DNA from: Mobula hypostoma
Lineage: Eukaryota
Length of the DNA stretch: 64,000 nt
Direction: 5' to 3'
Assembly: GCF_963921235.1 (NCBI RefSeq)
Contig: NC_086108.1
Location: forward strand, 13,640,001 to 13,704,000
Shown here: one piece after another, positions 1,682-63,217 of the stretch
How positions within the stretch are numbered: position 1 is the first letter of the stretch
Layout: every line of letters starts with the position of its first letter
Program-made: the position numbers and the translations under genes
Notes under the pieces: generated by a model
Told to the model about the DNA's origin: nothing
Databases searched by the model: none
What the model saw: only the letters and a program-made list of their open reading frames with translations

Positions 1682-1717
1682 AGTCGACGTTTCAGGCCGA
1701 GACCCTTCGTCAGGACT
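1682..1717 (-). ncRNA. Minimal type I hammerhead ribozyme motif (COP1-sense)
   Basis: AGUC-CUGACGA-AGGGUCUCGGCCU-GAAA-CG-UC/GACU: stem I AGUC/GACU, conserved core, stem II hairpin, palindromic ACGU stem III, GUC cleavage triplet. Confidence 0.85.
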
Positions 1718-2015
1718 AACTGAAGGAAGAGTGAGTAAGGGATTTGAAAGCTGGAGGGGGAGGGGGAGATGCAAAATGATAGGAGAAGACAGGAGGGGGA
1801 GGGATGGAGCCGAGAGCTGGACAGGTGATAGGCAGAAGGGGATACGAGAGGATCATGGGACAGGAGGTCCGGGAAGAAAGACGGGGGGGGGGGGGGGTGA
1901 CCCAGAGGATGGGCAAGAGGTATATTCAGAGGGACAGAGGGAGAAAAAGGAGAGTGAGAGAAAGAATGTGTGCATTAAAAAGAGTAACAGATGGGGTACG
2001 AGGGGGAGGTGGGGC

Positions 2016-4523
2016 CTAGCGGAAGTTAGAGAAGTCAATGTTCATGCCATCAGGTTGGAGGCTACCCAGACGGAATATAAGGTGTTGTTCCTCCAACCTG
2101 AGTGTGGCTTCATCTTTACAGTAGAGGAGGCCGTGGATAGACATGTCAGAATGGGAATGGGATGTGGAATTAAAATGTGTGGCCACTGGGAGATCCTGCT
2201 TTCTCTGGCGGACAGAGCGTAGATGTTCAGCAAAGCGGTCTCCCAGTCTGCGTCGGGTCTCACCAATATATAAAAGGCCACATCGGGAGCACCGGACGCA
2301 GTATATCACCCCAGTCGACTCACAGGTGAAGTGATGCCTCACCTGGAAGGACTGTTTGGGGCCCTGAATGGTGGTAAGGGAGGAAGTGTAAGGGCATGTG
2401 TAGCACTTGTTCCGCTTACACGGATAAGTGCCAGCAGGGAGATCAGTGGGGAGGGATGGGGGGGACGAATGGACAAGGGAGTTGTGTAGGGAGCGATCCC
2501 TGCGGATGCAGAGAGAGGCGGGGAGGGAAAGATATGCTTAGTGGTGGGATCCCGTTGGAGGTGGCGGAAGTTACGGAGAATAATATGTTGGACCCGGAGG
2601 CTGGTGGGGTGGTAGGTGAGGACCAGGGGAACCCTATTCCTAGTGGGGTGGTGGGAGGATGGAGTGAGAGCAGATGTACGTGAAATGGGGGAGATGCGTT
2701 TAAGAGCAGAGTTGATAGTGGAGGAAGGGAAGCCCCTTTCTTTAAAAAATGAAGACATCTCCCTCGTCCTAGAATGAAAAGCCTCATCCTGAGAGCAGAT
2801 GCGGCGGAGACGGAGGAATTGCGAGAAGGGGATGGCGTTTTTGCAAGAGACAGGGTGAGAAGAGGAATAGTCCAGATAGTTGTGAGAGTCAGTAGGCTTA
2901 TAGTAGACATCAGTGGATAAGCTGTCTCCAGAGACAGAGACAGAAAGATCTAGAAAGGGGAGGGAGGTGTCAGAAATGGACCAGGTAAACTTGAGGGCAG
3001 GGTGAAAGTTGGAGGCAAAGTTAATAAAGTCAACGAGTTCTGCATGCGTGCAGGAAGCAGCGCCAATGCAGTCGTCGATGTAGCGAAGGAAAAGTGGGGG
3101 ACAGATACCAGAATAGGCACGGAACATAGATTGTTCCACAAACCCAACAAAAAGGCAGGCATAGCTAGGGCCCATACGGGTGCCCATAGCTACACCTTTA
3201 GTTTGGAGGAAATGGGAGGAGCACAAGGAGAAATTATTAAGAGTAAGGACTAATTCTGCTAGACGGAGCAGAGTGGTGGTAGAGGGGAACTGATTAGGTC
3301 TGGAATCCAAAAAGAAGCGTAGAGCTTTGAGACCTTCCTGATGGGGGATGGAAGTATATAGGGACTGGACATCCAAGGTGAAAATAAAGCGGTGGGGGCC
3401 AGGGAACTTAAAATCATCGAAAAGTTTAAGAGCGTGAGAAGTGTCACGAACATAGGTCGGAAGGGATTGAACAAGGGGTGATAAAACAGTGTCGAGGTAT
3501 GCAGAAACGAGTTCGGTGGGGCAGGAGCAAGCTGAGACAATAGGTCGGCCAAGACAGGCAGGTTTGTGGATCTTGGGTAGGAGGTAGAAACGGGAAGTGC
3601 GGGGTGTGGGAACTATAAGGTTGGTAGCAGTGGATGGGAGATCCCCTGAGCGGATAAAGTCGTTGATAGTGTGGGAGACAATGGCCTGGTGCTCCTTAGT
3701 GGGGTCACGATCGAGGGGTAAATAAGAGGAGGTATCCGCGAGTTGTCGCTGTGCCTCGGCAAGGTAGAGGTCAGTACGCCAGACTACAACAGCACCCCCC
3801 TTATCAGCGGGTTTAATAATAATGTTAGGATTAGTGCGGAGGGAGTGGAGAGCAGAGCGTTCCGAAGGAGTGAGGTTGGAATGGGGACAAGGTGCGGTGA
3901 AGTCGAGACGGTTGATGTCCCGTCGGCAGTTGGCAATAAAGAGATCCAGAGCAGGCAGAAGACCAGAGCGGGGTGTCCATGAAGAAGAGGAGGGATGAAG
4001 ACGGGAGAAGGGGTCATCGGTGGGGGTGGAAGAGTCCTTGCCGAAGAAGTAGGCTCGGAGACGGAGATGGCGGAAGAAAAGTTCCGCATCATGGCGAACA
4101 CGGAACTCGCTGAGGTGTGGGCGAAGGGGGACAAACGTGAGGCCCTTACTGAGAACAGAGCGTTCTGCCTCCGACAGTTGAAGGTCGGAGGGGATGGTAA
4201 AGACCCGGCACGGATGAGAGCTGGGATCAGAGGGGGGAGGGGGGAGGCTGGGGGTGTCAATGGAGAGGGGAGGGTTGGGGTGAGAGGAAGATGGAGCCTC
4301 TGAGGGCCCAGGAGTTGACGGTGGGATCTGAGGAAGACGGGGCTGCGGAGTGGTGGTGGGGGAAGGGGAGACGGGAGTCACAACAGCAGCACATAAAGAC
4401 CCGGCCTGGAGTTCAAGGCTGGAGTCGCAGTTGGTGGTTGCGCGATCGCTTTGAATGTCTCCATGGTCGTTGCTGGAGTCCGGGTTTTGAATATGTCCTG
4501 AGGTGTTGGAGCCGCCGAGACCA
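2016..4523 (-). pseudogene. Penelope RT/GIY-YIG polyprotein ORF, 5'-truncated, one frameshift near 2506
   Basis: Motifs KPADKGGAVVV, YLLPKIHK, RPIVS, DVQSLYT, GVAMGT, RYIDD, FLDL, then VIYCVRC..LYIGET..RFAEH; tgcggatgca here versus tgcggaatgca in sister copies shows a 1-bp deletion; frame is open up to the junction at ~4523. Confidence 0.92.
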
Positions 4524-4774
4524 ACATTCTTTCTCTCACTCTCCTTTTTCTCCCTCTGTCCCTCTGAATATACCTCTTGCCCATCCTCTGGGTCACCCCC
4601 CCCCCCCCCGTCTTTCTTCCCGGACCTCCTGTCCCATGATCCTCTCGTATCCCCTTCTGCCTATCACCTGTCCAGCTCTCGGCTCCATCCCTCCCCCTCC
4701 TGTCTTCTCCTATCATTTTGCATCTCCCCCTCCCCCTCCAGCTTTCAAATCCCTTACTCACTCTTCCTTCAGTT

Positions 4775-4810
4775 AGTCCTGACGAAGGGTCTCGGCCTGA
4801 AACGTCGACT
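4775..4810 (+). ncRNA. Minimal type I hammerhead ribozyme motif (COP1-antisense)
   Basis: agtc ctgacga agggtctcggcct gaaa cgtc gact. Confidence 0.85.
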
Positions 4811-6009
4811 GCGCCTCTTCCTATAGATGCTGCCTGGCCTGCTGCGTTCACCAGCAACTTTGATGTATGTTGCTTAACAGAATCAACAAACTCATTTGTA
4901 AGGCCAGTGATGTTGTGGGGATGGAACTGGACTCTCTCACGGTGGTGTCTAAAAAGAGGATGCTGCCTAAGTTGCATGACATCTTGGTCAATGTCTCCCA
5001 TCCACTACATAATGTACTGGTTGGGTACAGGAGTACATTCAGCCAGAGACTCATTCCACCGAGATGCAACACAGAGCGTCATAGGAAGTCATTCCTGCCT
5101 GTGGCCATCAAACTTTACAGCTCCTCCCTTGGAGGGTCAGATCCCTGAGCCAATAGGCTGGTCCTGAACTTATTTCATAATTTACTGGCATAAATTACAT
5201 ATTACTATTTAACTATTATGGTTCTATTACTATTTATTACTTATGGTGCAACTGTAACGAAAACCAATTTCCCCTGGGATCAGTAAAGTATGACTATGAC
5301 TATAACTCAAGTCCTTCAATCCAGGCAATACTTAGTGAATTTCCTTCTGCACTCTCCAGTGCAACTCCATCCTTCCTAAGGTATGGTAAATAGAACTGTA
5401 CACAATACTCTAGGTGTGGCTGAACCAGTGTTTTGTAATGTTGAAACAATATGTTCCAACTCTGCCATATTTGCCTTTCATCCTAGCTGGAATATACTAG
5501 CATGAACACTTGCTAATGCTCTTTTAAGATTCCCACTTGTTAAGATATTGTTTTACTCACAAGTGTTTACTCCTAATTGACTTTCTGTTGAATAGAGTTA
5601 TTCATTGCCCCACCTCATTCCATACAGTCAGAACAATCCTCATCTGTTCACACTAGGAAGATAACACACCAACCAAGAAGTGGTTCTTGTTTCAGAAATT
5701 TCCATTTGCCTCAAAACCATGAGTACAATTGAGCTACCTATGGTGATGTAGATTTAGCTCCTGTTGTAGTTCAAAGTGAACTGAATTACTGTCAGTGAGC
5801 CCAATGGACTCAAGGTACTACTTGCTGTGGACTTTATCCATCTGGCTGTTATTCATTCATTTTCTGCCTATACATTCAAACCATTGCATGACCACTTGCA
5901 GAAAAAAAAAAGCTACCGTTCTTGGTCTCATAACGACTTCTAGTGATCCTAAATCTTGACTACAAAACCTCAGCTGACCATGTAATGCACACCTGCCTAT
6001 GAACAGTCT

Positions 6010-7373
6010 ACACAAGAACACAAGAAATAGGAGCAGGAGTTGGCCATCTGGCCCGGCGAGCCTGCTCCACCATTCAATAAGATCAGGGCTGATCTGGCCA
6101 TGGACTCATCTCCACCTACCTGCCTTTTCCCCATAACCCTCAATTCCCTACTATGCAAAAATCTATCCTTGTCTTAGATACATTTACTGAGGTAGCCTCC
6201 ACTGCTTCATTGGGCAGAGAATTCCATTCTCTTGGAAAAGCAGTTCCTCCTCATCTCCATCCTAAATCTAGTCCCCCGAATCTTGAAGCTATGTTCCCTA
6301 GTTCTAGTTTCACCTACCACTAGAAACAACTTTCCTGCCTCTATCTTATCTATTCTTTTCATACTTTTATGTTTCTATAAGATCTCCTCTCATTCTTCTG
6401 AATTCCAGCTAGTACAGTCCCAGGCAACTCAATCTCTCCTCATGGTCTAGCCTCCTCGTCTCTGGAATCAACTTGGTGCAACTCCTCTGCTCCACCTCCA
6501 AAGCCAGTATATCCTTCAAGAAAGGAGGTCAGAAATGCACACAGTACTCCAGGTGCTGTCTCACCAGTACCCTGTACAGTTGCAGCATAGCTTCCCTGCT
6601 CTTAAATTCAATCCCTCTAGCAATGAAGGCCAACATTCCATTTGCCTTCCTGATAGCCTGCTGCACCTGCAAACCACCCCTTTGTGATTCATGCACAAGC
6701 ATTCCCAAGTCCCTCTGCAGCATGCTGCAATTTTTTTTTTTACCATTTAAATAATAATCTGCTCTTCCATTTTTCCTTCCAAAGTGGACGACCTCACATT
6801 TTCCAACATTGTACTCCATCTGCCAGATCCTTATCCACTCACTTAGCCTATCTACATCTCTCTGCAGACTCTCCGTACCTTTTGCACAATTTGCTTTTCT
6901 ACTCAATTTAGTATCATCAACAAACTTAGATACATTACACCATGCCCCCTCTTCCAGATCGTAAACGTATTATCATGAACAGCTGCAGGCCCAGCACCGA
7001 CCCCTGCAGCACACCACTCACTCACCAGAGTAACAGCCATGTATCCCAACTCTGCTTTCTATTAGTTAACCAATCCTCTATCCATGTTAATACATCACCC
7101 CCAACTCTCTGCATCCTTATAGATGTCTTTTAGGTGGCATCTTATCAAATGCCTTCTGGAAATCCAAATAAATAACATCCATCTGTTCCCCTCTATCCAC
7201 TATGCTCGCTATATCCTCAAAGAACTCCAGTAAGTTTGTCAAACAGGACCTGCCTTTGTTGAATCCATGCTGCATCTACCTGATGGATCCACTTCTTTCT
7301 AGATGCCTCACTATTTCTTCTTTATTGATAGCTTCAAGCATTTTCCCAACTACAGATGTTAAACTAACTGGCC
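6010..7373 (-). mobile_element. CR1 LINE 3' portion, decayed
   Basis: ORF 6529..6906 LQRDVDRLSEW..WQMEYNVGKCEVVHFG..RDLG..LYRVLVRQHLEYCV; CR1-type 3' tail at 6010. Confidence 0.85.
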
Positions 7374-7879
7374 TGGGCAACTGTTTGACTTGGAAGCCAA
7401 AAAAGCAGCATAACACCTAGATTTATAGACAAACACAATTGGTAATTTATGGAGCCAAAAACAAGCTGCTGGTCCAACTCATTGGGAGACCGCAGCATCT
7501 GGGAGGGAAATAGACAACCACCCCAGTTCAGATGAAGGGTCTCGACCCAAATGGTGATTATCCATTTCCTTTCATAGGTGCTGCCTGATCTGCTCAGTTC
7601 TTCCAGCAACTCATTTGTTGCTTGAGATTCCGGTATTTTCAGTCTCCTTTCTCATCAGGTAACATGTTTATTGACTAGTCATTGGAGAACACCAAGCTTA
7701 ATTTTAAGCTGTTCTGGAGGGTTCTAAAAATAAGAAAAGATTTCTCTGCCAGCTTTTCTAAAATCAACAAACATAAGTGAACAACAACAGGAATTCTGCA
7801 GATGCTGAAAATTCAAGCAACACACATCAAAGTTGCTGGTGAACGCAGCAGGCCAGGCAGCATCTCTAGGAAGAGGTAC

Positions 7880-7915
7880 AGTCGACGTTTCAGGCCGAGA
7901 CCCTTCGTCAGGACT
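7880..7915 (-). ncRNA. Minimal hammerhead ribozyme motif (COP1-sense)
   Basis: Same 36-nt motif as 1682-1717, core intact. Confidence 0.85.
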
Positions 7916-9110
7916 AACTGAAGGAAGAGTGAGTAAGGGATTTGAAAGTTGGAGGGGGAGGGGGGAGATCCAAAATGATAAGAGAAGACAGGAGGGGGAG
8001 GGATGGAGCCAAGAGCTGGACAGGTGATTGGCAAAAGGGGATACGAGAGGATCATGGGACAGGAGGTCCGGGAAGAAAGACGGGGGGGGGGGGACCCAGA
8101 GGATGGGCAAGAGGCATATTCAGAGGGACAGAGGGAGAAAAAGGAGAGTGAGAGAAAGAATGTGTGCATAAAAATAAGTAACAGATGGGGTACGAGGGGG
8201 AGGTGGGGCCTAGCGGAAGTTAGAGAAGTCGATGTTCATGCCATCAGGTTGGAGGCTACCCACATGCCATCAGGTTGGAGGCTACCACCACTAAGCACAT
8301 CTTTCCCTCCCCTCCTCTCTCTGCATTCCGCAGGGATCGCTCCCTACACAACTCCCTTGTCCATTCGTCCCCCCCATCCCTCCCCACTGATCTCCCTCCT
8401 GGCACTTATCCCTGTAAGCGGAACAAGTGCTACACATGCCCTTACACTTCCTCCCTTACCACCATTCAGGGCCCCAAACAGTCCTTCCAGGTGAGGCAAC
8501 ACTTCACCTGTGAGTCGACTGGGGTGATATACTGCGTCCGGTGCTCCCGATGTGGCCTTTTATATATTGGCAAGACCCGATGCAGACTGGGAGACCGCTT
8601 TGCTGAACATCTATGCTCTGTCCGCCAGAGAAAGCAGGATCTCCCAGTGGCCACACATTTTAATTCCACATCCCATTCCCATTCTGACATGTCTATCCAC
8701 GGCCTCCTCTACTGTAAAGATGAAGCCACACTCAGGTTGGAGGAACAACACCTTATATTCTGTCTGGGTAGCCTCCAACCTGATGGCATGAACATCGACT
8801 TCTCTAACTTCTGCTAGGCCCCACCTTCCCCTTGTACCCCATCTGTTACTTATTTTTATGCACACATTCTTTCTCTCACTCTCCTTTTTCTCCCTCTGTC
8901 CCTCTGAATATACCTCTTGCCTATCCTCTGGGTCCCCCCCCCCCCGTCTTTCTTCCCGGACCTCCTGTCCCATGATCCTCTCGTATCCCCTTTTGCCAAC
9001 CAACTGTCCAGCTCTTGGCTCCATCCCTCCCCCTCCTGTCTTCTCCTATCATTTTGGATCTCCCCCTCCCCCTCCAACTTTCAAATCCCTTACTCACTCT
9101 TCCTTCAGTT

Positions 9111-9146
9111 AGTCCTGACGAAGGGTCTCGGTCTGAAACGTCGACT
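9111..9146 (+). ncRNA. Minimal hammerhead ribozyme motif (COP1-antisense)
   Basis: agtc ctgacga agggtctcggtct gaaa cgtc gact. Confidence 0.8.
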
Positions 9147-9255
9147 GCACCTCTTCCTAGAGATGCTGCCTGGCCTGCTGCATTCACCAGCAACTTTGAT
9201 GTGTGTTGCATAAACATAAGTGAAATAGTTTTGTGAAGAAAGGGATTTTACAAAC

Positions 9256-9315
9256 CTCCACCCGCTTGATGTCCTCCTCAAGAACATTCAGCTCCTTTTG
9301 TAACTGCTCCAGTTG
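9256..9315 (-). CDS. COP1: COP1 exon 7 equivalent, 60 bp, coiled coil
   Basis: Translates QLEQLQKELNVLEEDIKRVE (visible inside ORF 9184..9387); cag acceptor and gtttgt donor. Confidence 0.95.
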
Positions 9316-11126: not shown

Positions 11127-11195
11127 CTCCTTCTTATTCCTTCTTGCTTCCTGAAGAAATTCCATGAGGATGTGCAGCTGAGCTGCCTGTGACTC
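11127..11195 (-). CDS. COP1: COP1 exon 6 equivalent, 69 bp, coiled coil
   Basis: Translates ESQAAQLHILMEFLQEARRNKKE; tag/gttagt borders. Confidence 0.95.
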
Positions 11196-11239
11196 CTATG
11201 CAAAAAGAAGTGATAAAGATTTTAAAAAATGTAAAACTG

Positions 11240-12230: not shown

Positions 12231-12232
12231 TG

Positions 12233-13330: not shown

Positions 13331-13334
13331 TTCT

Positions 13335-17506: not shown

Positions 17507-17626
17507 AGCTTCCAGCTGCTGTTTCTTCTGCATAATAAGCTCCAGCATGAGGTTAACATTGGCAAGATCCAAACTGTCCTGGTCTGCAATTAAAACATCT
17601 TGTATTGCCTGCCATCTGTGACCATT
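17507..17626 (-). CDS. COP1: COP1 exon 5 equivalent, 120 bp, start of coiled coil
   Basis: Translates [40 protein letters not shown]; tag/gtgagt borders. Confidence 0.96.
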
Positions 17627-18262: not shown

Positions 18263-18327
18263 TGGGTGTTCCAGTTTTATTCGCTTATCTTCAAACCTTT
18301 GCTTCTGTTTCAGGATTAGTTCATTAA
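18263..18327 (-). CDS. COP1: COP1 exon 4 equivalent, 65 bp
   Basis: Translates (V)[21 protein letters not shown]; tag acceptor and gtaagt donor. Confidence 0.93.
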
Positions 18328-24529: not shown

Positions 24530-24865
24530 TTGTTTCTCCTTTACTATCTCTCCCCATCCTCTGTTTGGTTCTATCATCCCTCCTTATCTGTTTCCATCCA
24601 TCATCTACTAGCTTGTCTCTAACCTTCCCCTCCCTTTCTCTACCAAGTTCTATCTGTTAAATCTCACCACCCACCGCCCCCCACCATCACCACGTTGTTT
24701 CCACCAGCCTCTGCCACACCCCTCCTTCTCACTTCTTTATACCAGCTATCCTCCCTTTACACACATTCCTGATGCAGGATCTTGACCCGAAACATCGACC
24801 ATCTCTTTGCCTCCACAAGGTGCTGCCAGACCCTGAGCTCTTCCTGCAGTTTAATCTCCAGTACT
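24530..24865 (+). repeat. Old Penelope-type terminal-repeat remnant with diverged hammerhead motif (~24767-24800)
   Basis: Pyrimidine-rich tract, then cctgatgcaggatcttgacccgaaacatcgac...tgctgcc. Confidence 0.6.
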
Positions 24866-27132: not shown

Positions 27133-27230
27133 CTAGAAAGTTGGGATACAGCTGATCAACATTATCAATCACATAATTGCACTTCGGGCACCGGTTACTG
27201 ACCTCAAGGCTCTGCCGAATACATTTGTAG
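27133..27230 (-). CDS. COP1: COP1 exon 3 equivalent, 98 bp, second half of the RING finger
   Basis: Translates [32 protein letters not shown]; cag/gtaag borders; phase continuous with neighbouring exons. Confidence 0.96.
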
Positions 27231-41358: not shown

Positions 41359-41418
41359 CAGAAACTGTGACCACATTTTGTCATATGTGCCTCTTCAATC
41401 ATCTCAAAACAGATAGGG
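41359..41418 (-). CDS. COP1: COP1/RFWD2 internal exon (human exon 2 equivalent), 60 bp, first half of the RING finger
   Basis: Reverse complement translates (C)[19 protein letters not shown](C), matching COP1 [25 protein letters not shown]; cag acceptor and gtaag donor. Confidence 0.96.
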
Positions 41419-42367
41419 CTGTGAAGGATGAAATAAATAGAAACTTTTATTATACATTGTCTCAACAGGAACATGGGCTAACAGTTCATTAACTATTTGA
41501 ATAGCAAAACTATGAGGATTGATCAATGGTAAGTGGCATTTTCTGTACATGAGCCAGGGAAGAAATAGTCAGGTTCATATCTGATTATTTCACCATGGAG
41601 CATGTGGAAATAGCCAGTGTCACTTTCAAGTTGCTCAGTGGTCACTGACATAAGCATTGCAGGTTTATATGGAAACAAAGCAGGTGAATTCTGATGAAAA
41701 AGAAATCCTGCCAAGTATACCAAATGAAACATTAGATTATTAACTAAACTCAGTATAGCAAATCTCTGAACAAGAATGACACCTAAAAGCCGCTTGGGAA
41801 ACCAGGAACCCTCAAATTACTTACAGGTTGTTCCCTGTCAAAATACACACCCCTTTTTACAAGTGAGCACAAGACAATATTGTCAGAAAATTGAAAAAAA
41901 AAGAAACACAGCGAAGAAACTTGATAAAACATGCATGGAACTGTATGTAATAAATTATATCAAATGCACTCAAGACAGAAAGAAAAACAAAGTGGAAAGG
42001 GAGGGGAAATTATTTCTGCCATTCTTAAGAATGAACATATGTACATAAATCGGGCTTTTGAATTTAACATCATGAGGGGAGATCATTTGTATGCAGGTGT
42101 ATCCATAACCTGGGGATACACTGTAAAGGCAACGGACCACAAACATATATGCACTAATTACAAAGCAAAGCCAAATGACACATCAAATCATAACAGGATG
42201 CCTACAGACCAAGTCCGTGTCATATTCAGCACCATACTCTGCAACATGAACAAAGTAGCAAGTACTAATGACCAACTTGCACAAGGAAAAGCCATCTTCA
42301 ACAGGAGTACAAGCAGTACAACTTCACTCAGAGCACTAACCTTTTCCCCCTTGCATAATATCTACAA

Positions 42368-43314
42368 GCAACACACATCAAAGTTGCTGGTGAACGCAGC
42401 AGGCCAGGCAGCATCTATAGGAAGAGGTGCAGTCGACGTTTCAGGCCGAGACCCTTCGTCAGGACTAACTGAAGGAAGAGTGAGTAAGGGATTTGAAAGC
42501 TGGAGGGGGAGGGGGAGATGCAAAATGATAGGAGAAGACAGGAGGGGGAGGGATGGAGTCGAGAGCTGGACAGGTGATAGGCAGAAGGGGATACGAGAGG
42601 ATCATGGGACAGGAGGTCCGGGAAGAAAGACGGGGGGGGGGGTTGACCCAGAGGATGGGCAAGAGGTATATTCAGAGGGACAGAGGGAGAAAAAGGAGAG
42701 TGAGAGAAAGAATGTGTGCATAAAAAAGAGTAACAGATGGGGTACGAGGGGGAGGTGGGGCCTAGCGGAAGTTAGAGAAGTCAATGTTCATGCCATCAGG
42801 TTGGAGGCTACCCAGACGGAATATAAGGTGTTGTTCCTCCAACCTGAGTGTGGCTTCATCTTTACAGTAGAGGAGGCCGTGGATAGACATGTCAGAATGG
42901 GAATGGGATGTGGAATTAAAATGTGTGGCCACTGGGAGATCCTGCTTTCTCTGGCGGACAGAGCGTAGATGTTCAGCAAAGCGGTCTCCCAGCCTGCGTC
43001 GGGTCTCGCCAATATATAAAAGGCCACATCGGGAGCACCGGACGCAGTATATCACCCCAGTCGACTCACAGGTGAAGTGTTGCCTCACCTGGAAGGACTG
43101 TTTGGGGCCCTGAATGGTGGTAAGGGAGGAAGTGTAAGGGCATGTGTAGCACTTGTTCCGCTTACACGGATAAGTGCCAGGAAGGAGATCAGTGGGGAGG
43201 GATGGGGGGGACGAATGGACAAGGGAGTTGTGTAGGGAGCGATCCCTGCGGAATGCAGAGAGAGGGGGGGAGGGAAAGATATGCTTAGTGGTGGGATCCC
43301 GTTGGAGGTGGCGG
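42368..43314 (-). mobile_element. Penelope-like element 3: simple 5'-truncated copy (GIY-YIG + terminal repeat), 11-bp TSD
   Basis: TSD aatatctacaa at 42357-42367 and 43315-43325; ORF 42762..43088 is nearly identical to 2016..2342. Confidence 0.93.
42431..42466 (-). ncRNA. Minimal hammerhead ribozyme motif (COP1-sense)
   Basis: Same 36-nt motif, core intact. Confidence 0.85.
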
Positions 43315-45147
43315 AATATCTACAACACCAGAATCAGCCAGGCTACCCACTTGCAGGAGGAATGAAAAAGCTTTAGCAGCAAAGCTATTGAAAATAATCA
43401 GTGAGTAACTACCACCCACACCCCTGCACAATCTGGTTTCAATTACCAAAGAAAAACACAGCACAGCCTGAATTGTATGAGAGCTGAATTCCACAGATAC
43501 AAGTTTTTCACAAAAACATGGGGCCCATACACAACTAACCTGATAGGAGAAACATACAAGTAAAGCACAGGAAAGGCACTTTGGCTCACTATGCTGTGCT
43601 AACCTAATTAAACCAGTGACTCCAAATTCATCTAATCTCCTTGTCCTGCACAATGACCTCCCTTCTCTGAACATTCATGACGCTATGTAACAGCATCTCA
43701 AACATTAACTGCCTCTACCACCACCTGTGGCAGTACATTCAAAGCCCCAACCACTGTGTAAAGTAATTGTCCAGTACATCTCTTTCATACTTTCCCCTTC
43801 CCAAATTTATATACATGCTCACCACAGTTCCCTTGGAGACACTGGATTGCGTAGCAGGACTGAGGTTTCAATGAGGGCAGTCGGGATATTCTGCACACCA
43901 CAGCTTCCTTGGAGATGATGGATTGTGCATTACTAGGCACTTGGCAAGGGCCAATAAAAAGGTACGAATTAAGTGGAGGGGCCATTATGAGTGGGCAATG
44001 TTACAGCGTAGAGCTGAGCCTTTGGTTCGTCTAAGTTTTGGAAAGGACAGGTATAGGCCATAGGTAATTTTTTTTGTTACTTATTCTTTCTTTATTATTG
44101 CACATTTAGATCAGTAAGGATGCCAGGCAGGATAATGGAATGTTCCTGTTGCGCAATGTAGGAAGGCAGGGAGACCGCCAGTGTCCCTGACACATAGACC
44201 TGCAAGAAGTGTATCCAGCTGCAGCTACTAACAGACCACGTTAAGGAGTTGGAGCTGGAACTGGATGAACTCAAGATTATTTGGGAGTTGAGGGGTTGAG
44301 AGGCAGGACATACAGAGAGGTAGTTACATTCAAGGTGCAGGTCAAGGGTAACTGGGTGCCCGTCATAAGGGGGAAAGGGATATGCATCTAGTGCGGAGTA
44401 CCCCTGTGGTCATTCCCCTCAAGAACTGGATACTGTTCGGGGGATGACCTAGCAGAATAAAGCCACAATGGTCAGGTCTCTGGGATTGAGTCAGGCTCTG
44501 TGGCTTAGAAGGGAAAGGGGGAGAAGAGGAGAGTTGTAGTGACAGGAGATTAGTTACTTAGGGAAACAAAAAGTAGGTTCTGAGGATGAGAATGAGATTC
44601 CCAGATGGTACATCGCCTCCTGGGTGCCAGGATCAGGATTTTGGATTGAGTGCACAACATTCTTAAGTAGGAGGGTGAGCAGAGGTCATGGTCCATGTGG
44701 GGACGAGGGGTGACAAAAACCTGCAAAGTGAGTTTAGGGAGTAAGTGCCAAGTTAAAGGACAGGATCTCTAGGGTTGTGATCTGAGGATTGCTACCCATG
44801 CCACCTGCTAGTGAGGCCAGAAATAGGAAATACCGTTTAACGTGTGGCTAAGGAGGTGGTACACAAGAGAGGACTTCAGATTTTTGTATCATTGGGCTCT
44901 CTTCTATGGTAGGCGAGACTTGCAGCTCAACTGAAGGGGGGTTAATATCCAAGCAGGTAGGATTGCTAATACTGCACGGAGGATGTTTAAACTAGAGTTG
45001 CAGTGTGATGAGAACCAGAACAGGTAGTGGAGTGGTTGTGAAGAGAGATTTGTTAAGTCTACATACAAAGTCAGGAATCAAAAGGTTGAGCATGGTGGGA
45101 CTAATGTTTTGAGCTGCACATATTTAAATGCAATGAGTATTGTAGGA

Positions 45148-45897: not shown

Positions 45898-45920
45898 GAA
45901 ACACAAGGTTTTGATAGCAG

Positions 45921-45966
<46 letters not shown>

Positions 45967-46445
45967 GCTGGAGGAACTCAACAGGTCAGCCAGTATTTAT
46001 GGAAATGAATAAACAGTTGATGTTTTGGGCCAAGACCCCTCTTCAGGAATAGAAAAGAAGGGAGAAAACACTGGAATAAAATGGTAGGGGAGGGGAAGGA
46101 GAAGGAGAAGGAAGATAGCTAGAAGGTATAACTAGGATAGATAGATAGGTGAAACCAGGTGAGTAGGAAAGCCAAAGGGCTGGAGAGGAAGGAACCTGAC
46201 AGGAGACGAGAGTGGACCACAGGAAGAAGGGGACCTAAAGGGAGGTGATAGGCAGATGAGAAGAGTTAAGAGGCTAGAGTTGGTAAGACAAGAACGGGGA
46301 GGGGAGGAGAAGTTGTTTTTTTTAAAACCAGAAGGCAACATTGACATTCACACCATCAGCTTGGAGGCCACCCTGATGGAATACAGGGTGTTGCTCATCT
46401 ACTGAGGGTGGTCTCATCTTGACACAAGAGGCAGCCGTGGACCAA
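45898..46445 (-). mobile_element. Older diverged Penelope 3' end (GIY-YIG C-terminal remnant + terminal repeat) containing a (CA)n microsatellite at ~45926-45964
   Basis: EQHPVFHQGGLQADGVNVN resembles EQHLIFRLGSLQPDGMNID; decayed hammerhead at ~46015-46050. Confidence 0.75.
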
Positions 46446-53740: not shown

Positions 53741-54024
53741 AACACTGGAGCATAACACAAAGGATCATCAAATGAGATCCCTCACTTCAACTCAACACAT
53801 TCTACATCTAACACACACAACAGGAGTCCTGTGCAAAATACCAGAGAAAGTCATAGTTGGACAAAGGTGCAGTGCCTCAAGAAAAATGCCCAATACTACA
53901 GGTCAACAGAAAAAAGTTAACACCACTTTAAAAATTCAAAAAAAAACAGCATTCCCCTTCATCAAAACTAGTTTATGAAAATGCCAGGCATGAAACACCT
54001 TAAATAAAAGCCCATTATTTAATT

Positions 54025-54325
54025 GTGTTGGCGCATGGCCAAGTGGTTAAGGCATTCGTCTAGTGATTTGAAGGTCGCTAGTTTGAGCCTTGGCTGAGGC
54101 AGCGTGTGCGTCCTTGAGCAAGGCACTTAACCTTGAGTAACGACACCAGTGCCAAGCTGTATGGGTCCTAATGCCCTTCCCTTGGACAACATCGGTGGCG
54201 TGGAGAGGGGAGATTTGCAGCATGGGCAACTGCTGATCTTCCATACAATCTTGCCCAGGCCTGCGCCCCGGAAACCTTCCAAGGCGTAAATCCATGGTCT
54301 CATGAGACTAACGGATGCCTATTAT
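54025..54325 (+). mobile_element. tRNA-derived CORE-type SINE
   Basis: A-box tggccaagtgg, B-box-like agtttgagcc, gtccttgagcaaggcacttaacc, (tat)n tail. Confidence 0.7.
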
Positions 54326-54335
54326 TATTTAAGTA

Positions 54336-55829: not shown

Positions 55830-56939
55830 TATTAAAGAGCAATGTGCACAGTTCTACTCACCACACACTAGGAAAGATGCAACAGAAACAGTGAGAATGA
55901 TGAAGAATTCCCCCAACTGCAGGTATAAGGAAAACTCCCACTGGAATAAAGGAAGTGGAGGATGACCTTGCAGAAGTTTATAAAATAATTATGGGAATAG
56001 ATAGGACAGTCAGAATATCTTCTCCCAAGGTCGTGGACTCTAGATGTTGAGGGCACAGGGTTAAAGTGAGAAGGGAGAAATTTAAATGAAAGACAGAACT
56101 GCTCCACAAGTTAAGGTCCTAAACTAGCAGGACCAGTTTTGAGAGTTGGATCCTGCAGAGGTCAAATGGGTGAGACAGTCTGCAGATAGAGATGACTAGT
56201 GAGTGGAATGCTTTTAAAAGTGTGATAACAGGAGTCCAGGTGAAGTAATGTTCCTGTCAGACAGAAGAGCAGGCTGGATGGAAAAAGATACTATGTGGCT
56301 CCAATCAGGAAAAGGAGGCATATATCAGGTTTAGGCCATCAAGAACAAGTGATTCCCCAAATGTTTTTTGCAGGAGTGCACTTAAGGAAATCAGACAGGG
56401 TTAAGAGAGGGGAGCTATGGCTTTAGCAAAGAGAAGGGGGCTAAAGCGAAGTTTCTGTTTAGTTCTCTTTCTTTTTTCTATTATTGCATAGTTAGGTGGT
56501 ATGGTCCTCTTGAACCTAGTATCCCTGATGAGTGTACCTGAAAGAGTGCATCCAGCCGCAGCTCCTTACAAACTGCATTAGGGAACTGGAGCTGGATGAT
56601 CTACAGATCATTCAAGAGAGAGAGGTTTATTGACAAGAGTTACAGGAAGGCAGTTACTCCTAAGTTGCATGATGTGGGAGGCCTTCAAAAGTGAAATATT
56701 AACAGTGAAGAGTTTGTCTGATCCTGGTAGAATTAAAAAAAGGCTAACAGCTAGGGAACTTTGGTTTGAGGGATCAAATGAAAGATGGAGGAGATCTTAA
56801 TTTTGCTTTGCGTGTCTGTATTTACTCAGGAGATAGACATGGAGTCTGTACAATTGTTGCAAAATAGTAAAGGTCATGGACCGTATCTGGATTACAGAAG
56901 AGGAAGCTTGCTGTCTTGAGACAAATTAGGGTGGATAAA

Positions 56940-57223
56940 TTTATTTTTATTTATTTACTGAGATACAGCTGAAATAGGCCCTTCAAGCCACGCCACCCAT
57001 CAATCCTTGATTTAATCCAAGCCTAATCACAGGTTAATTTACAATGACCAATTAACCTACCAACTGGTACATCTTTGGACTCTGGGAGGAAACCAGAGCA
57101 CCCAAAGGAAACCCACACGGTCACGGGGAGAATGTACAACCTCCTTACAGGTAGCAGCAGGAATTGAATCTAGGTTGCTGGTACTGTAAAGCATTGTGCT
57201 AATCACTACACAACCATGCCACC
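56940..57223 (-). mobile_element. HE1-like V-SINE inserted in CR1
   Basis: Homologous to 17070-17355; A-rich tail (ttat)n on the plus strand. Confidence 0.7.
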
Positions 57224-58069
57224 TCTACAAAAATTTTTTGTGCTTTTCAAGGTGTCCCCTTAAACCTTGCAGGAGGCCAGTGCAGAAACTGCAGGGACTC
57301 TGACAGAAATATTTAAAACATCCTTAGCCATGTGTGAAGTGCCAAAGAGTGGAAGTTTACAAATGTTCTGTCGTTCAAAAAAGGCTCCAAGAATAAGCCA
57401 GAAAATTATAGGCAAAGGAGCCTGATGTCAGTTGTGGGTAAATTATTAGAAGGTATTCTATGGGAGAGGATATTTGGATAGACAGGACCTCATTAGGATA
57501 CTCAACATGACTTTTATGTGTGGTAGGTCATGCCTAGCCAATCTTACAGCAGTGTGTTCCTGGCACCTACCACTCTCTGTAAATTAAGAACTTGCCTCGC
57601 ACACCTCCCTTTAAAATTTCTCCCTCCCACATTACAAGCAAGTCCTCCAATATTCAACACTTCCACCCTGGGAAAAAGACCAACTATCCATCCTAAAAGG
57701 GCCAACGCCCTTCATCAGGACTAATGTAATGGCAGCTGCAGAACTTTCTTGAGAGGGAAAGCAAACAGCTAGAGGTTATCGCACATTACAAACAAGATAG
57801 GCAGAGCAGGGATGATCATACAGAATGACTATAGGGAATTCAGTCAGAAGTTAAGTAGCAGGACCTTGAGGTTGGTGATCTCCAGATTACTCCCAGTACC
57901 ATGTGCTTGTGAGGTCAGATACAGAAGGATAGGCCAAATGAATTTTAGCTGAGAAGCTGGGACAGGGATTCAGGTTCTTGAATAACTGGGATCTCTTCTA
58001 GGGCAGAGGGACAAGTTGCACTTGATCCATGCAGAAAAATTTGCTAATGCTACATGGAAGGAGTTAATA

Positions 58070-58327
58070 AAATCCCTTACTCACTCTTCCTTCAGTTAGT
58101 CCTGACGAAGGGTCTCGGCCTGAAACATCGACTGCACCTCTTCCTATAGATGCTGCCTGGCCTGCTGCGTTCACCAGCAACTTTGATGTGTGTTGCTTGT
58201 AGATATTATGCAAGGGGGAAAAGGTTAGTGCTCTGAGTGAAGTTGTACTGCTTGTACTCCTGTTGAAGATGGCTTTTCCTTGTGCAAGTTGGTCATTAGT
58301 ACTTGCTACTTTGTTCATGTTGCAGAG
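58070..58327 (+). repeat. 258-bp inverted duplicate of 42237-42494 (Penelope 3' end with hammerhead + ~130 bp unique intron flank)
   Basis: Reverse complement matches 42237-42494 except one CpG transition; ORF 58064..58330 repeats part of ORF 41931..42968. Confidence 0.95.
58098..58133 (+). ncRNA. Hammerhead motif (COP1-antisense) with stem III palindrome mutated from ACGU to ACAU
   Basis: agtc ctgacga agggtctcggcct gaaa catc gact. Confidence 0.75.
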
Positions 58328-58782
58328 CACGCAAGGCTTAAAAACCGGAGAGTTGATCAGCTGAGGACTGGCATGTTATAGCCATAACAGAAATGTACCC
58401 GAGACAAGGGCAGATTTGGCAGCTCAATAATCCAGGAGACAGATGCTACAGGCATGACAGAGGTACAGGCAAGTGAAGAAGTGGTGTCCCTTTTGATAAG
58501 GGAGGACATAACTGCACTGCTTAGAAATGACATTCTTATGGAATCGCCCAGTGAAGTCATAAGCATAGAAGTTAGAAACAAAAGGTTACTCCAGTGTAGA
58601 ATTGCCAGTGGGAATTGAGGAGCAGATGCACAAAGATATTGCTCAGCAATGTAAGAATAAAACAATTTTTATTAATCAGAGATTTCAATTTCTGCAGTAT
58701 TGACTAGTCAGGGTGTCAAGGGCCCAAATTGGGTGGAATTTGTTAATGTGTCCAGGGAAGTTTCTTGAGTCAAAATATAGAG

Positions 58783-60470
58783 CAGTGGTTTTCCAAGTGG
58801 GCAATATTGCCACCCCAATCATGTTTTGCCTGATTTATGATGACATCTTAACTTTCCCCTTTATTAATCGCAATACTTCAGGTTGGAATTAAATAAAATG
58901 CAATTGACTGTAGTCACTGATCCATAATGAAAAAGGCAAAAGCAGACCAAATGAAATAGAAGTGTAGACAGTAGAGTATGCAGTATCTGAAATATGAATT
59001 TATACCAGCACCAAGCAATTAACATGCAAAATGCGCCTGTTGTGTGAAAATGCTTTCAAATGAGGCAATGAAACCGCCCAGGCTCATTGAACATTACTCA
59101 GATAAAGCAAACAAGATCCTGTCTTATTTTCAGCCACTTTGTGAAAACTTACAGAAACAGCAAACACTTCAAAAGATGTTTGCCAGCACTTAACAACAAA
59201 ACAGTGATGGTTTGCGGGCTTCATACAACATCTCACTGTTTATTACTAAATCTGGAAAGCCATACATGGAGAAGAACTGATTCTGTCAACAGTAAGGGAG
59301 GTTCTGAGTACAGTTTTGCATAAATCACCGGACCAAATAATTAAAGCGATTCCGCTCAGCAATAGCTCTGTTCAAAGACAAGTAAATGAAATATCTGAGA
59401 ATGTGGAAGACACATTGTGCAACATACTTAGGACAACAGAATTTGCTCTGCAGTTGGATGAGTCAAATTTGTTAGGCAATGAATCTTTCTTCTTGGTTAT
59501 ATTCGCTTCATAAATGATAAAAGTATGGTTCAAGAGTTTTTATTTGCAAAGGGACGAGAAACAGGTCAGAAAGAGAAGTCAATATTTCAAGATGCTGAAC
59601 AATTTTTCCCCAAAGAGAACAACAATCTGTTCACCAACATTGTTGCTTATGCAACGGATGAGGTACCATCAATGACAAGACGGGATGGGGTGATTATTTT
59701 CTTGAAAAAAATCTGTACACAACATATTTATTATTCACTATGCAATTCACAACATCTTTCTGAAAAATATCTAAGTGATCGGCTGCACAAATAATTAAAT
59801 ACTGTTATCACTGCGATAAACAAAATCAAGTCCATGCTCTGAATTCGATTATTTCAAAAGTTTTGTGTTGAGAATGATGAACTGTTTGAACTCTTGCTGT
59901 TGCATACAGAAGTCAGATGGCTCTCAAAAGGAAAATGCCTGTGATGCTTTTATGCGCTTTCTGAAACAGTGAAAATAAACTTTGAAGACTGAAATGCTTC
60001 ATTTTACAATCAATTGAAGATTTTTAGGCATGACATTACTTATTTGTCAGAATTATTCACAAAATTTAATGAAATCATCTTCAAAGAAATTGCATGAATC
60101 TTATCAAAATCAAATCCACTGTTTTCTATATTCCTGTCCAAGTTTTAAGTGCAACAATGGCCATCGCGACCTTTTCCCATTTCCGAGCCAGAGGTGGAAG
60201 AGAAAGAAAAACACTTGATCATCTTCAAATTTATTGTGTCCACCTGGGTGAGCTGCATAAAGACATGTTAGAGATTAAAGCATCTTCTCTCAATCCAAAT
60301 GCCAGATTAGGTAATAAATCCATTCCCAAACACTTATAATGAAGAATTAACAGGAAGGATGGAAATAGGACTAATCTCACTACAAAATGACTGAGCTAAA
60401 GCTGAGGTTCAAGAAATCATATCAAGACTTGTGGTTGCAGTAATAAATCTCTGAACACTATCCTGCAGAT
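58783..60470 (+). mobile_element. Decayed hAT Charlie/Buster-type transposon, 3'-truncated
   Basis: TIR-like cagtggttttccaagtggg; transposase remnants IPLSNSSVQRQVNEISENVE..FALQLDES, ATDEVPSM, LLLHTEVRWLSKG. Confidence 0.85.
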
Positions 60471-61594
60471 AGATCTACGGGTTAGGATCCCAATTTTAAG
60501 GGAACTAGGCAGGAACTAATAGATCTCGCTTTGGGGAACCCAATAGAGGGGATAGGAACAAAGAGCAACCTTTTAAGAGTGAGATATCCGAGTCCAGGGT
60601 AGGATGTTCCTGTTAGGATGAAGGATAAATCTAGCAAACATCAGGAATGCTGGTTTATGAGAGATATTGAGGCGCTGGACAAGAAAAAGGAAGCATACAT
60701 TGGATTTAGGAGGTTAAGAACGAATGAATCCCCTGATGACTATAAAAAGATTAAGACTACGCTAAGAGTGAAATCTGGCAAGTGAGGTTAAGAAAAATCC
60801 TGAAAGAACCTTAGCTATATTATGAGTAAAATGGTTGCTAGGGAGAGAGGAGATCCCCTAGTAGGGCTGCCTATGTCTCAAGCTGTAGGAGATGTGTACA
60901 ATTTTTAATGAATATTTCTGTGTTTACTGAGGAGGAAATCATGGTTGCTCAGGTAAGAGAAACAACTAACCTGCACTTTAACTATACCAAATGACTTAGC
61001 CTCCACAGCCATTTGTGATAATGAATTCCACAGATTCACCACATTCAGACAACAGAAACCCCTTCTCACCTCTTTTCTAAATGGTCATCATTCTATTGTG
61101 CGGATGTGCTTTCTGGTCCTAACCTCTCCCAGTACAGGAAGTTTAAAGATATCGGGGTAAGTTTTTTTTAAAAATGCAGAGAGTGGTGAGGGCGTGGAAT
61201 GGGCTGCCTGGGGCAGTGGCGGAGGCAGAAACAAAAGGGTCTTTTAAGAGACTCCTGGATGGCTACATGGACCTTTGAAAAATAGAGGGCTATGGGTAAA
61301 GCCCAGGTAGTTCTAAACTAGGGACATATTCAGTACAGCTTTGTGGGCCGAAGGGCCTGTATTGTGCTGTATGTTTTCTATGTTTCATCTCTATGTCCAC
61401 TCTGTCATGGCCTCTCAATATTGGGTAGGCTTCAATAAGATTTTCACCGCACTCCACACCCCCAATTCTGAACTCAAGTACATGCCCAGAGCAATTAAAC
61501 ATTCCACATACATGAACCTTTCATTCAACGATCATTCTCATAAACCTCCTCTGGACCCTCTCCAATGCCAGCACATCCTTCCTTAGATATCAGG

Positions 61595-61915
61595 CATTTT
61601 CACCCAAAGAACTGACAATCACTGGATGTTTTGTTCTTTGCACTATTCTCTGTAAACTCTGGATACTGTTGTACATGAAATCAGGCAGTTTCTGAGACAC
61701 TCGAACCACCCCATCTGGCACCAACAATCATTCCACAGTCAAAGTCACTTAGATCTTATTTCTTCCCCATTGTAATACTTGGTCTGAGCAACAAATGAAT
61801 CTCTTGACCATGCATGCATGCTTTTACACATTGAGTTGCTGCCACTTGACTGGCTGATTAGATATTTACATTAATAAGGTGTACAAGTGTACCTAATAAA
61901 GTAGCCACTGATTGT
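61595..61915. mobile_element. Tc1-like non-autonomous terminal fragment
   Basis: Ends gtgtacctaataaagtagccactgattg|ta; echo at ~62207-62225 (aataaagtggccaccgag). Confidence 0.55.
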
Positions 61916-62936
61916 ACATCTTTTTATTGATCAATAATGGGTTATTGACTAAAACAAAGAAAACAGGGATTCAGTAAACAAGGTAAAGCACATTACAGGA
62001 TAATATTTCTAACAAAAGGCAAGGCCACCCAATCAACCAACTCGTTGGGATATTTCAAACTATTTTATTCATTGAAAGATTCAGCACGGTAACAGGCGCT
62101 TCTGACTCAACAACCCTGCATTGCCCAATTACACCCATGCGACAATTAACCCACTAATCCATACAGATTTAGAATGCAAGAAGAAACTGGAGCATCTGGA
62201 GGCCACAATAAAGTGGCCACCGAGAGAAAAGTAGTGGGCACAACACTAAGCCCTATGGATCACCAGATACCAGCAAGCAACCAGAGAGGCCCCTTTGTTC
62301 ACATTCTGCCTTTTGCCAGTCAGCCAATCCTCTGTCTGTGCTAGCATCTTTCCTGTAAAGTTGGGCTCTTATTTTAACAGCCTCATGCATGGCATATTGT
62401 TCAAGGCCTTTTAAAAATCCAAGTAAACAACATCCACCGAGTCTCCTTTGTCTATTCTGTCTGTAATTTCCTCAAAGATTTCCAACAGATTGACAAACAA
62501 GATTTTCCCATGCTGACGTCAGCCTCATCTATCATGCACCTCCAAGTACCCTGAGACTTCATCCTTAATAATGGATTCAAACATCTTGCCAATCACCGAA
62601 GCCAGGCTAACTGGCCTATAATTTCCTGTCTTTTGTTTTCCTTCCTTCTTGGAGTAATGACATTAAGAACGACAGCATGACAAGCCAAATAACTAAAAGG
62701 CAATTAGTCTAATATCAGTAGTGGTGAGGGACAGAATCAACCAGCATATAGACAAAGTATGATTAGGAGTTAGCAAAGGCGTTGTGCACGGAAGTCTTGC
62801 TTGATACACCTTTTAGAACTTTTAAAAGAATGAAAAAAAAGAAATATGAGGGCAGAACAGTGCATGCTGTCTATCACGAGTAAACTCACCAAACCTCTGA
62901 CTCAGGAAGTTAATGTCTGCTTCTGCAAATGGATGC

Positions 62937-63217
62937 AACACACATAAAAGTTGCTGGTGAACGCAGCAGGCCAGGCAGCATCTCTAGGAAGAGGTACAGT
63001 CGACGTTTTGGGCCGAGTCCCTTCATCAGGACTAACTGAAAGTAGTTAGTCCTTCTTTCACATTGTTACTTCTTTCAGTTAGTCCTGACGAAGGGTCTCG
63101 GTCCAAAACGTCGACTGTACCTCTTCCTAGAGATGCTGCCTGGCCTGCTGCGTTCACCAGCAACTTTTATGTGTGTTGCTTGAAATTCCACCATCTGCAG
63201 ATTTCCTCGTGTTTGCG
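62937..63217. mobile_element. Penelope-like element 4: 281-bp hairpin made only of two inverted terminal-repeat ends, 16-bp TSD
   Basis: TSD ttctgcaaatggatgc at 62921-62936 and 63218-63233; 108-bp arms 62935-63042 and 63072-63179; hammerhead motifs at 62998-63033 (-) and 63081-63116 (+), both with GAAA changed to AAAA. Confidence 0.9.

What the first reader, a model, noticed from the sequence alone, without database searches (positions are those of the whole stretch)
1682..63116. At least eight young minimal hammerhead ribozyme motifs inside COP1 introns, four on each strand
Seen: a 36-nt motif AGUC-CUGACGA-AGGGUCUCGGCCU-GAAA-CGUC-GACU at 1682(-), 4775(+), 7880(-), 9111(+), 42431(-), 58098(+), 62998(-) and 63081(+). 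Known: Penelope-like elements carry minimal type I hammerheads whose very short palindromic stem III (here ACGU) favours dimeric cleavage. Inference: three core-intact copies lie on the COP1 pre-mRNA strand and could pair with each other and cut introns 1 and 7 co-transcriptionally.
Basis: partly seen in the sequence, partly recalled or inferred. Interest (0 to 1): 0.7.

Follow-up and report, generated by a model that had tools for sequence, protein, structure and literature searches.

The report
Penelope ribozyme hitchhikers in COP1 introns
These eight motifs are the ribozyme-bearing ends of a young jumping gene that has scattered over 50,000 such copies through this genome, and they are predicted to be folded shut in the COP1 transcript, so they likely do not cut it.

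Summary
All eight motifs are present at the stated places, in COP1 introns 1 and 7 (gene on the minus strand). They are not eight events: four Penelope-like element (PLE) insertions plus one local inverted duplicate, and the 4+4 strand balance comes from PLE inverted ends. The genome holds 50,694 exact matches (one per 69 kb, no strand bias); 5 of 80 sampled 64-kb bins have as many as this window. PLE minimal hammerheads are published. Cleavage of COP1 pre-mRNA is not supported: in read-through context stems I and II are predicted not to form (P<0.01), antisense arms of 120-450 bp precede each sense copy, the dominant subfamily has G10.1-U11.1, only 1 of 100 sampled genomic copies starts at the cut site, and spliced COP1 contigs exist in 5 of 5 runs laid. 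Cleavage itself was not measured. Copy 5' ends pile up just before the ribozyme, a likely transcript start, where the stems are predicted to fold: a possible on/off switch. A 927-bp inverted PLE pair brackets exons 2-7 (back-splicing candidate, untested). The scan already reported this family and the pile-up elsewhere in this genome.

The parts
1581..4875 (-). E1: near full-length PLE, 5'-truncated, with an inverted copy of its 3' end (4524-4875) and a one-sided tail (about 1581-1615); 15-nt target duplication at 1570 and 4876; inserted in an older LINE
2339..4523 (-). PLE reverse transcriptase frame of E1 (open 2339-4660 stop to stop; the part above 4523 belongs to the inverted arm)
   Evidence: Pfam RVT_1 E 3e-5, 24.2 bits, under the 29.6 cut-off
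2016..2537 (-). CxxxxCxxC linker and GIY-YIG endonuclease frame of E1, out of frame with the RT in this copy
   Evidence: Pfam GIY-YIG 23.6 bits, cut-off 22.6
1682..1717 (-). minimal hammerhead motif, core intact, G10.1-U11.1; sense to COP1, intron 7
4775..4810 (+). same motif in the inverted arm of E1; antisense on the COP1 pre-mRNA
7780..9211 (.). E2: head-to-head PLE insertion, arms 7780-8262 (-) and 8285-9209 (+); 13-nt target duplication at 7769 and 9212
7880..7915 (-). minimal hammerhead motif, core intact; sense to COP1, intron 7
9111..9146 (+). motif with weakened stem II; antisense to COP1, 110 nt past the exon 7 donor
42365..43316 (-). E3: 5'-truncated PLE (endonuclease part and pLTR, no tail); 11-nt target duplication at 42357 and 43315
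42431..42466 (-). minimal hammerhead motif, core intact; sense to COP1, intron 1
58070..58327 (+). inverted duplicate of 42237-42494 (130 nt of E3 plus 128 nt of its host flank), 257 of 258 identical, no convincing target duplication; holds the 58098-58133 motif (G16.2>A)
62923..63214 (.). E4: older fold-back PLE insertion, 123-bp arms with 21-nt spacer, 16-nt target duplication at 62921 and 63218; motifs 62998-63033 (-) and 63081-63116 (+), both G10.1-C11.1 but G12>A
41359..41418 (-). COP1 exon 2 (60 nt)
27133..27230 (-). COP1 exon 3 (98 nt)
18263..18327 (-). COP1 exon 4 (65 nt)
17507..17626 (-). COP1 exon 5 (120 nt)
11127..11195 (-). COP1 exon 6 (69 nt)
9256..9315 (-). COP1 exon 7 (60 nt)

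Best explanation
The eight motifs are the hammerhead-bearing terminal repeats of four insertions and one local duplicate of a young, genome-wide Penelope-like retroelement, and they are predicted to stay misfolded, so likely uncut, in the COP1 pre-mRNA. Shown: the element anatomy (RT, GIY-YIG, inverted pLTRs, tails, target duplications), the copy number, the absence of strand bias, and that genomic copies span the cut site. Inferred: reverse transcription starts about 65-100 nt downstream of the ribozyme, so almost every truncated copy carries it; head-to-head insertions put one copy on each strand; the element's own RNA starts about 35 nt before the cut site. Predicted: when RNA is read through from upstream, as in COP1, the pyrimidine tract before the motif pairs with its CUGACGAAGGG part, and longer antisense arms can pair over the whole motif, so the ribozyme fold does not form. 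COP1 is a passive host.
For: Anatomy. 50,694 strict copies, equal strands; 87,136 matches just downstream; at least 39 copies 100% identical to E1 over 221 nt, so the family is very young. Window density within the empirical tail. Folding: stems I/II P<0.01 in context; antisense duplexes -641 (280 bp, 2.7 kb apart), -947 (450 bp, 0.5 kb), -528 (258 bp, 15.6 kb) and -220 kcal/mol (123 bp, 21 nt). 5' ends: of the first 100 of 87,136 matches, 92 extend 11 nt or more past the cut site, 1 starts within 2 nt of it, 37 start 21-60 nt before it; 0 of 28 distinct ORF-linked loci start within 10 nt; 8 of 8 that reach the site cross it. Spliced COP1 contigs: exons 3-7 in 4 of 4 runs, exon 1-2-3 in 4 of 4. 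Papers: weak dimer cleavage (PMC4209133); protein-assisted cleavage, uncut RNA as main template, no reads ending at the site (PMC11167929).
Against: No cleavage assay or raw RNA reads. Folding models undervalue hammerhead cores and ignore co-transcriptional order and proteins. The copy-end test speaks for RNAs that were copied back, not for all transcripts; cut RNAs may be lost. The antisense arm of 42431 is 15.6 kb away and may not pair. It is unknown whether the sequenced animals carry these insertions, and spliced mRNA does not exclude partial cleavage. Counted as copies the window is richer than its flanks (p 0.014). The core is intact in 68 of 85 sampled full-motif copies, so most copies are not dead by sequence.
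Confidence: 0.85

Rival explanations
1. One reading: the core-intact sense copies pair through ACGU and cut COP1 introns 1 and 7 during transcription often enough to lower or time COP1 mRNA.
For: Three sense copies have a full core; 1682 and 7880 share intron 7, 6.2 kb apart; dimer cleavage is the published mode (PMC4209133; PMC6765202 passages); an intronic ribozyme does tune its host mRNA in CPEB3 (PMC10274809, abstract).
Against: Stems predicted unformed in context and antisense arms transcribed first; active dimer much less stable than alternatives, among them an inactive duplex through GUCGAC across the cut site (-10.3 against -3.1 kcal/mol for ACGU); G10.1-U11.1 costs about 5 kcal/mol per dimer against G-C copies (-9.5 against -14.7); tens of thousands of copies with no strand bias overall; 5 sense against 4 antisense copies between COP1 exon 1 and its last exon found, so no local depletion.
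Confidence: 0.05
2. Occasional protein-assisted cleavage: the element's protein binds the tail region of intronic copies in trans, refolds the hammerhead and cuts a small share of COP1 pre-mRNA where the element is expressed.
For: The Anolis PLE hammerhead cleaves only with its protein (PMC11167929, read in section 3). The family is young and probably active. 1682 and 7880 keep the tail.
Against: The same paper found no RNA-seq reads ending at the site. Copies that were surely bound by the protein (they were reverse transcribed) are uncut. 42431 lacks the tail.
Confidence: 0.1
3. The effect on COP1 comes from double-stranded RNA, not catalysis: the E3 copy in intron 1 and the right arm of E2 in intron 7 would pair across exons 2-7 and promote back-splicing (472-nt circle), skipping or A-to-I editing. 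Compatible with the best explanation.
For: 8285-9209 and 42368-43294 are 927 bp at 96.9% complementarity, 46 nt from the exon 7 donor and 950 nt from the exon 2 acceptor; second by score of all inverted matches in the gene, and the most similar of the long across-intron ones. Across-intron pairs promote back-splicing (PMC5052039, passages). Human COP1 makes a circle, of exons 3-15 (PMC11583565, passages).
Against: The arms are 33 kb apart, and the intron 7 arm has closer partners inside intron 7 (446 bp at 0.5 kb; 930 bp at 5.7 kb). No positive evidence of a circle was obtained.
Confidence: 0.15

Closest known systems
Minimal type I hammerheads (min-HHR) in pLTRs of metazoan PLEs: Xena, Poseidon, Neptune (Cervera and de la Pena 2014, PMC4209133; read parts 1-2 of 4: results, discussion, start of methods)
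   Same: CUGANGA and GAA core, one extra nucleotide after A9, 4-bp helix I, palindromic 15.1-16.1 with no real helix III, position in the pLTR, mostly solo copies and opposite-strand pairs spread genome-wide.
   Different: Copy number (at least 50,694 against about 4,000 in coelacanth and 9,000 in Xenopus); high uniformity; helix II of 4 bp; the dominant subfamily has G10.1-U11.1 in place of the conserved G-C (43,114 against 7,580 strict copies).
Endonuclease-bearing PLEs of Neptune/Nematis type (Craig et al. 2021, PMC8557442; passages)
   Same: RT followed by CX2-5CxxC linker and GIY-YIG; 5' truncation, partial tandems, inverted 5' copy, 30-40 bp tail at one end, hammerhead in the pLTR.
   Different: Clear 11-16 nt target duplications here. 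Clade not tested by a tree.
PAc, Anolis Poseidon PLE (Frangieh et al. 2024, PMC11167929; passages and second part of main text)
   Same: Hammerhead just upstream of the RT start sites that define the tail; uncut RNA is the template.
   Different: Other clade; there the ORF starts inside the ribozyme, here the first in-frame ATG lies about 60 nt after the cut site; activity measured there, not here.
Functional intronic host ribozymes such as CPEB3 (PMC10274809, abstract; ultraconserved amniote hammerheads recalled)
   Same: Self-cleaving motif on the sense strand of an intron.
   Different: Those are single-copy, conserved and active as monomers; these are young repeat copies with no helix III and no sign of selection at this locus.

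Membership tests
EN+ Penelope-like element | RT domain | tested here: met
   Pfam RVT_1 E 3e-5 but under the curated cut-off; DKG and YIDD motifs visible in the frame
EN+ Penelope-like element | C-terminal GIY-YIG endonuclease | tested here: met
   PF01541 at or above cut-off in 3 of 3 copies tested
EN+ Penelope-like element | Direct or inverted pLTRs and one-sided 30-40 bp tail | tested here: met
   Inverted arms and tails in E1, E2, E4; direct upstream pLTR in 8 of 28 distinct loci
Neptune/Nematis clade | CX2-5CxxC linker between RT and EN | tested here: met
   C-x4-C-x2-C in the frames of E1, E2, E3; definition from PMC8557442
Neptune/Nematis clade | Placement in an RT tree | not tested
   No reference PLE proteins were fetched
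min-HHR (type I) | Core CUGANGA, GAA, and UH cut triplet | tested here: met
   6 of 8 copies; 62998 and 63081 have G12>A
min-HHR (type I) | Helix I, helix II and an extra nucleotide after A9 | tested here: met
   4-bp stems possible in 7 of 8 (one mismatch in 62998); P about 0.9 only when the RNA starts 32-36 nt before the cut site
min-HHR (type I) | Palindromic 15.1-16.1 segment | tested here: met
   ACGU in 7 of 8; ACAU in 58098
min-HHR (type I) | G10.1-C11.1 pair (a conserved trait in PMC4209133, not part of its descriptor) | tested here: not met
   G-U in 6 of 8; G-C only in the two G12>A copies; U in 71 of 85 sampled copies
min-HHR (type I) | Self-cleavage as dimer or with protein | not testable with these tools
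   No assay; only contigs were available
Rfam hammerhead families | Covariance-model match | tested here: not met
   No hammerhead family at E<=1 in the window or E<=10 in 4740-4850
Functional intronic host ribozyme | Single copy, locus-specific | tested here: not met
   50,694 strict copies
Functional intronic host ribozyme | Conserved at the orthologous intron position across species | not testable with these tools
   No relatives of this genome are held; 98% identity between copies and intact target duplications point to recent insertion

The most novel reading that the evidence does not exclude
The PLE terminal repeat is a built-in safety catch: the tract just upstream of the hammerhead folds it shut in any read-through RNA (host introns, the 3' repeat), and only the element's own transcript, which starts about 35 nt before the cut site and lacks that tract, can form stems I and II. 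Together with a G10.1-U11.1 change in the most successful subfamily, this would explain how a vertebrate genome tolerates over 50,000 core-intact ribozyme motifs. Basis: stem probabilities about 0.9 without and below 0.01 with the upstream tract; 5' ends cluster at that boundary, over a TCAGTT initiator-like word (initiator consensus recalled); stem I is also blocked, by a different hairpin, in two older G-C copies. Limit: 6-20 of 200 control flanks suppress the fold as much, so an evolved switch is suggested, not shown.
Probability: 0.2. Interest if true: 0.55.

Novelty: new member of a known kind. Interest (0 to 1): 0.2.

Why it matters
As a COP1 finding it matters little: it is what an average-to-rich 64 kb of this genome looks like. 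The family is a useful system for an open question, what PLE hammerheads are for: it is very young, has more than ten times as many exact motifs as published vertebrate counts for coelacanth, its copies were made from uncut RNA, and its main subfamily lost a conserved stem pair. If the context switch or the Alu-like pairing across exons were confirmed, it would show how hosts neutralise, or are reshaped by, ribozyme-bearing retroelements in their introns.

Tried and rejected
Rfam scans gave no hammerhead match; the one hit (mir-961, 34 bits against 100) is the E4 fold-back. One search timed out with no output. No RNA holder was listed on record; six runs of guessed kind came back, all contigs, so RNA ends, strand and editing could not be read. 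At exon 2 the contigs of 4 of 4 runs showed only exon 1 and exon 3 neighbours; contigs drop rare forms, so this says nothing on back-splicing. Rejected: eight independent ribozymes (four insertions plus a duplicate); strand balance as a sign of design (inverted PLE ends; genome 25,323 against 25,371); U11.1 as CpG decay in place (71 of 85, against 2 of 85 for the G of the same CpG and 6 of 85 at another CpG); cleavage defining copy 5' ends. Age of subfamilies: G-C copies are more diverged (median 0.90, n=30) than G-U copies (0.95, n=12), but the 12 include two copies counted twice and the sample is small. A search for a matching LINE to size a deletion at the 58070-58327 duplicate found nothing useful. 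Lunse et al. (PMC5785218) is not held; its dimer result is cited through PMC6765202. Literature searches: Penelope + hammerhead ribozyme + chondrichth gave 3 papers (one read by passages, none seen describing this family); Penelope + back-splicing + inverted repeat + intron gave 3 reviews, listing only; hammerhead + G10.1 + C11.1 + stem II gave 2. Supplements of PMC4209133, which hold further motif alignments, were not read.
Full report
Observation. A scan of both strands finds all eight motifs at the coordinates given. Four equal the quoted 36-mer (1682-, 4775+, 7880-, 42431-). 9111+ has a weaker stem II, 58098+ has lost the ACGU palindrome, and 62998- and 63081+ carry G12>A; that G12 is catalytic is recalled. 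The geometry is that of the minimal hammerhead of PMC4209133: 4-nt stem I strand, CUGANGA, one extra A, 4-bp stem II with a CUCG loop, GAA, ACGU, C, stem I strand. No Rfam hammerhead model matches.

The host gene. Exons 3 and 5 match human COP1. Exons 2-7 lie on the minus strand with AG/GT ends. Contigs join exons 3-7 with CT..AC joints in 4 of 4 runs and place exon 1 and exon 3 sequence beside exon 2 in 4 of 4 runs; five different runs of two studies in all, whose kind is a guess by the tool. Exon 1 ends near window position 65,013 and exon 8 lies about 0.8 kb before position 1. The organism was not determined; an earlier unchecked note calls it a cartilaginous fish.

What the motifs belong to. 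Each lies in the terminal repeat of one Penelope-like family. E1 (1581-4875) has RT and GIY-YIG frames, a C-x4-C-x2-C linker (Neptune or Nematis type by PMC8557442), an inverted 3' copy at its 5' end, a one-sided tail and a 15-nt target duplication that splits an older LINE. E2 (7780-9211) and E4 (62923-63214) are head-to-head insertions with 13- and 16-nt duplications; E3 (42365-43316) is a single truncated copy with an 11-nt duplication. 58070-58327 is an inverted duplicate of E3's end plus 128 nt of its host flank, 257 of 258 identical, without a target duplication. Eight motifs are thus five events, and the strand balance follows from the inverted ends described for PLEs (PMC8557442, passages).

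How common. A 31-nt pattern has 50,694 exact matches in 3.476 Gb, split evenly between strands, control 0. The window's four strict matches exceed a Poisson mean of 0.93 (p 0.015), but 5 of 80 bins of 64 kb at the start of contig C1 also hold four. In 200 kb of flank a relaxed scan finds 7 copies in 6 events: p 0.10 by events, 0.014 by copies. The locus is somewhat rich, not exceptional. The family is very young: 39 of the 40 best candidates scored match 221 nt of E1 at the top score.

Would they cut COP1? With native flanks none of the three intact sense copies is predicted to form stems I or II (P<0.01): the upstream pyrimidine tract pairs with the first core strand. Polymerase also makes an antisense arm before each sense copy, giving possible duplexes of 280, 450, 258 and 123 bp at 2.7 kb, 0.5 kb, 15.6 kb and 21 nt. 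The active double hammerhead scores -9.5 to -11.1 kcal/mol, against -20 to -42 for separate monomer folds and -28 to -54 for inactive dimers; such models undervalue ribozyme cores, so this ranks alternatives only. The six young copies have G10.1-U11.1. That is the master sequence of the main subfamily (43,114 against 7,580 strict copies; 71 of 85 sampled), not decay in place. Published PLE minimal hammerheads show no monomer and low dimer activity (PMC4209133, results read), and the Anolis one cleaves only with its protein, is dispensable for insertion in vitro and leaves no reads at its cut site (PMC11167929, main text part 2 read).

Genomic record of cleavage. If cut RNA were copied, copies would start at the cut site. 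I mapped 5' ends in three samples. Of 30 loci (28 distinct) with the ORF 5' part, 8 reach the site and all 8 cross it. Of 30 loci (28 distinct) with the tail-to-ORF junction, 23 cross it, 5 start 15-70 nt after it, none within 10 nt. Of the first 100 of 87,136 matches to a pattern 18-51 nt after the site, 92 extend at least 11 nt past it, 4 start within 5 nt and 1 within 2 nt, no more than the 1.7 expected from the neighbouring density; 37 start 21-60 nt before it against 8 in the next 139 nt. Two of the 100 rows are tandem duplications with doubtful ends and many rows are two arms of one insertion. Templates were therefore uncut. The pile-up lies over a TCAGTT word just before stem I and most likely marks the element's transcript start; RT stalling at the upstream hairpin is the rival. 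I noted this before finding that the scan had already reported it elsewhere in this genome.

A possible switch. An RNA starting 32-36 nt before the cut site forms stems I and II with P about 0.9, though its core is still predicted mispaired; with 60 nt of upstream sequence they vanish. Against 200 shuffled and 200 random flanks per copy, 6-20 suppress as strongly as the native one in the three COP1 copies; in two G-C copies stem I is suppressed (2-14 of 200) but stem II is not. This is suggestive only.

What might still affect COP1. 8285-9209 and 42368-43294 are 96.9% complementary over 927 bp and bracket exons 2-7 (472 nt), 46 nt from the exon 7 donor and 950 nt from the exon 2 acceptor. Across-intron pairs promote back-splicing and compete with each other (PMC5052039, passages). 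The intron 7 arm has closer partners within its own intron and the span is 33 kb. I obtained no evidence of a circle.

Verdict. Real observation, known kind of object, and a host-cleavage inference that the evidence here does not support (about 5%, plus about 10% for rare protein-assisted cutting). Not seen described for this family in the searches: the copy number, the G-U subfamily and the context-dependent fold; supplements of PMC4209133 and the Lunse paper were not seen and may bear on this. Interest 0.2.

Noticed in passing
window 58070-58327 (+) and 42237-42494: A 258-nt inverted duplicate, 15.6 kb from its source, carrying the PLE end plus 128 nt of COP1 intron 1 flank, one difference, no target duplication. 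Either a 3' transduction from an uncut read-through RNA or a templated insertion from DNA repair.
   Followed up: partly
window 8285-9209 and 42368-43294: 927-bp, 96.9% inverted PLE pair bracketing COP1 exons 2-7; candidate for back-splicing, skipping or editing.
   Followed up: partly
genome-wide: The most numerous subfamily has G10.1-U11.1 instead of the conserved G-C pair, 43,114 against 7,580 strict copies, which fits relaxed need for cleavage.
   Followed up: partly
L068-L070 (G000:C2:157816656-157817386): Tandem array with a 310-bp period of the PLE 5' region, each unit starting about 37 nt before the cut site and holding the hammerhead: retrozyme-like.
   Followed up: no
window about 790-1584 and 4876-5290: Older LINE with RT and PF09004 hits (Rex/Babar type, label recalled), split by E1 with a 15-nt duplication.
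   Followed up: partly
window 228-263 (-), about 7520-7560 (+), 24765-24800 (+), 46015-46050 (-): Older, decayed hammerhead-like motifs of related PLE subfamilies with a G-C closed stem II.
   Followed up: no
window 62923-63214: Both arms of the fold-back E4 share G12>A and end about 45 nt before the cut site.
   Followed up: no
window 18263-18327: COP1 exon 4 is spliced as 65 nt in all four runs; the human exon is recalled as 77 nt through a donor 12 nt further on.
   Followed up: no
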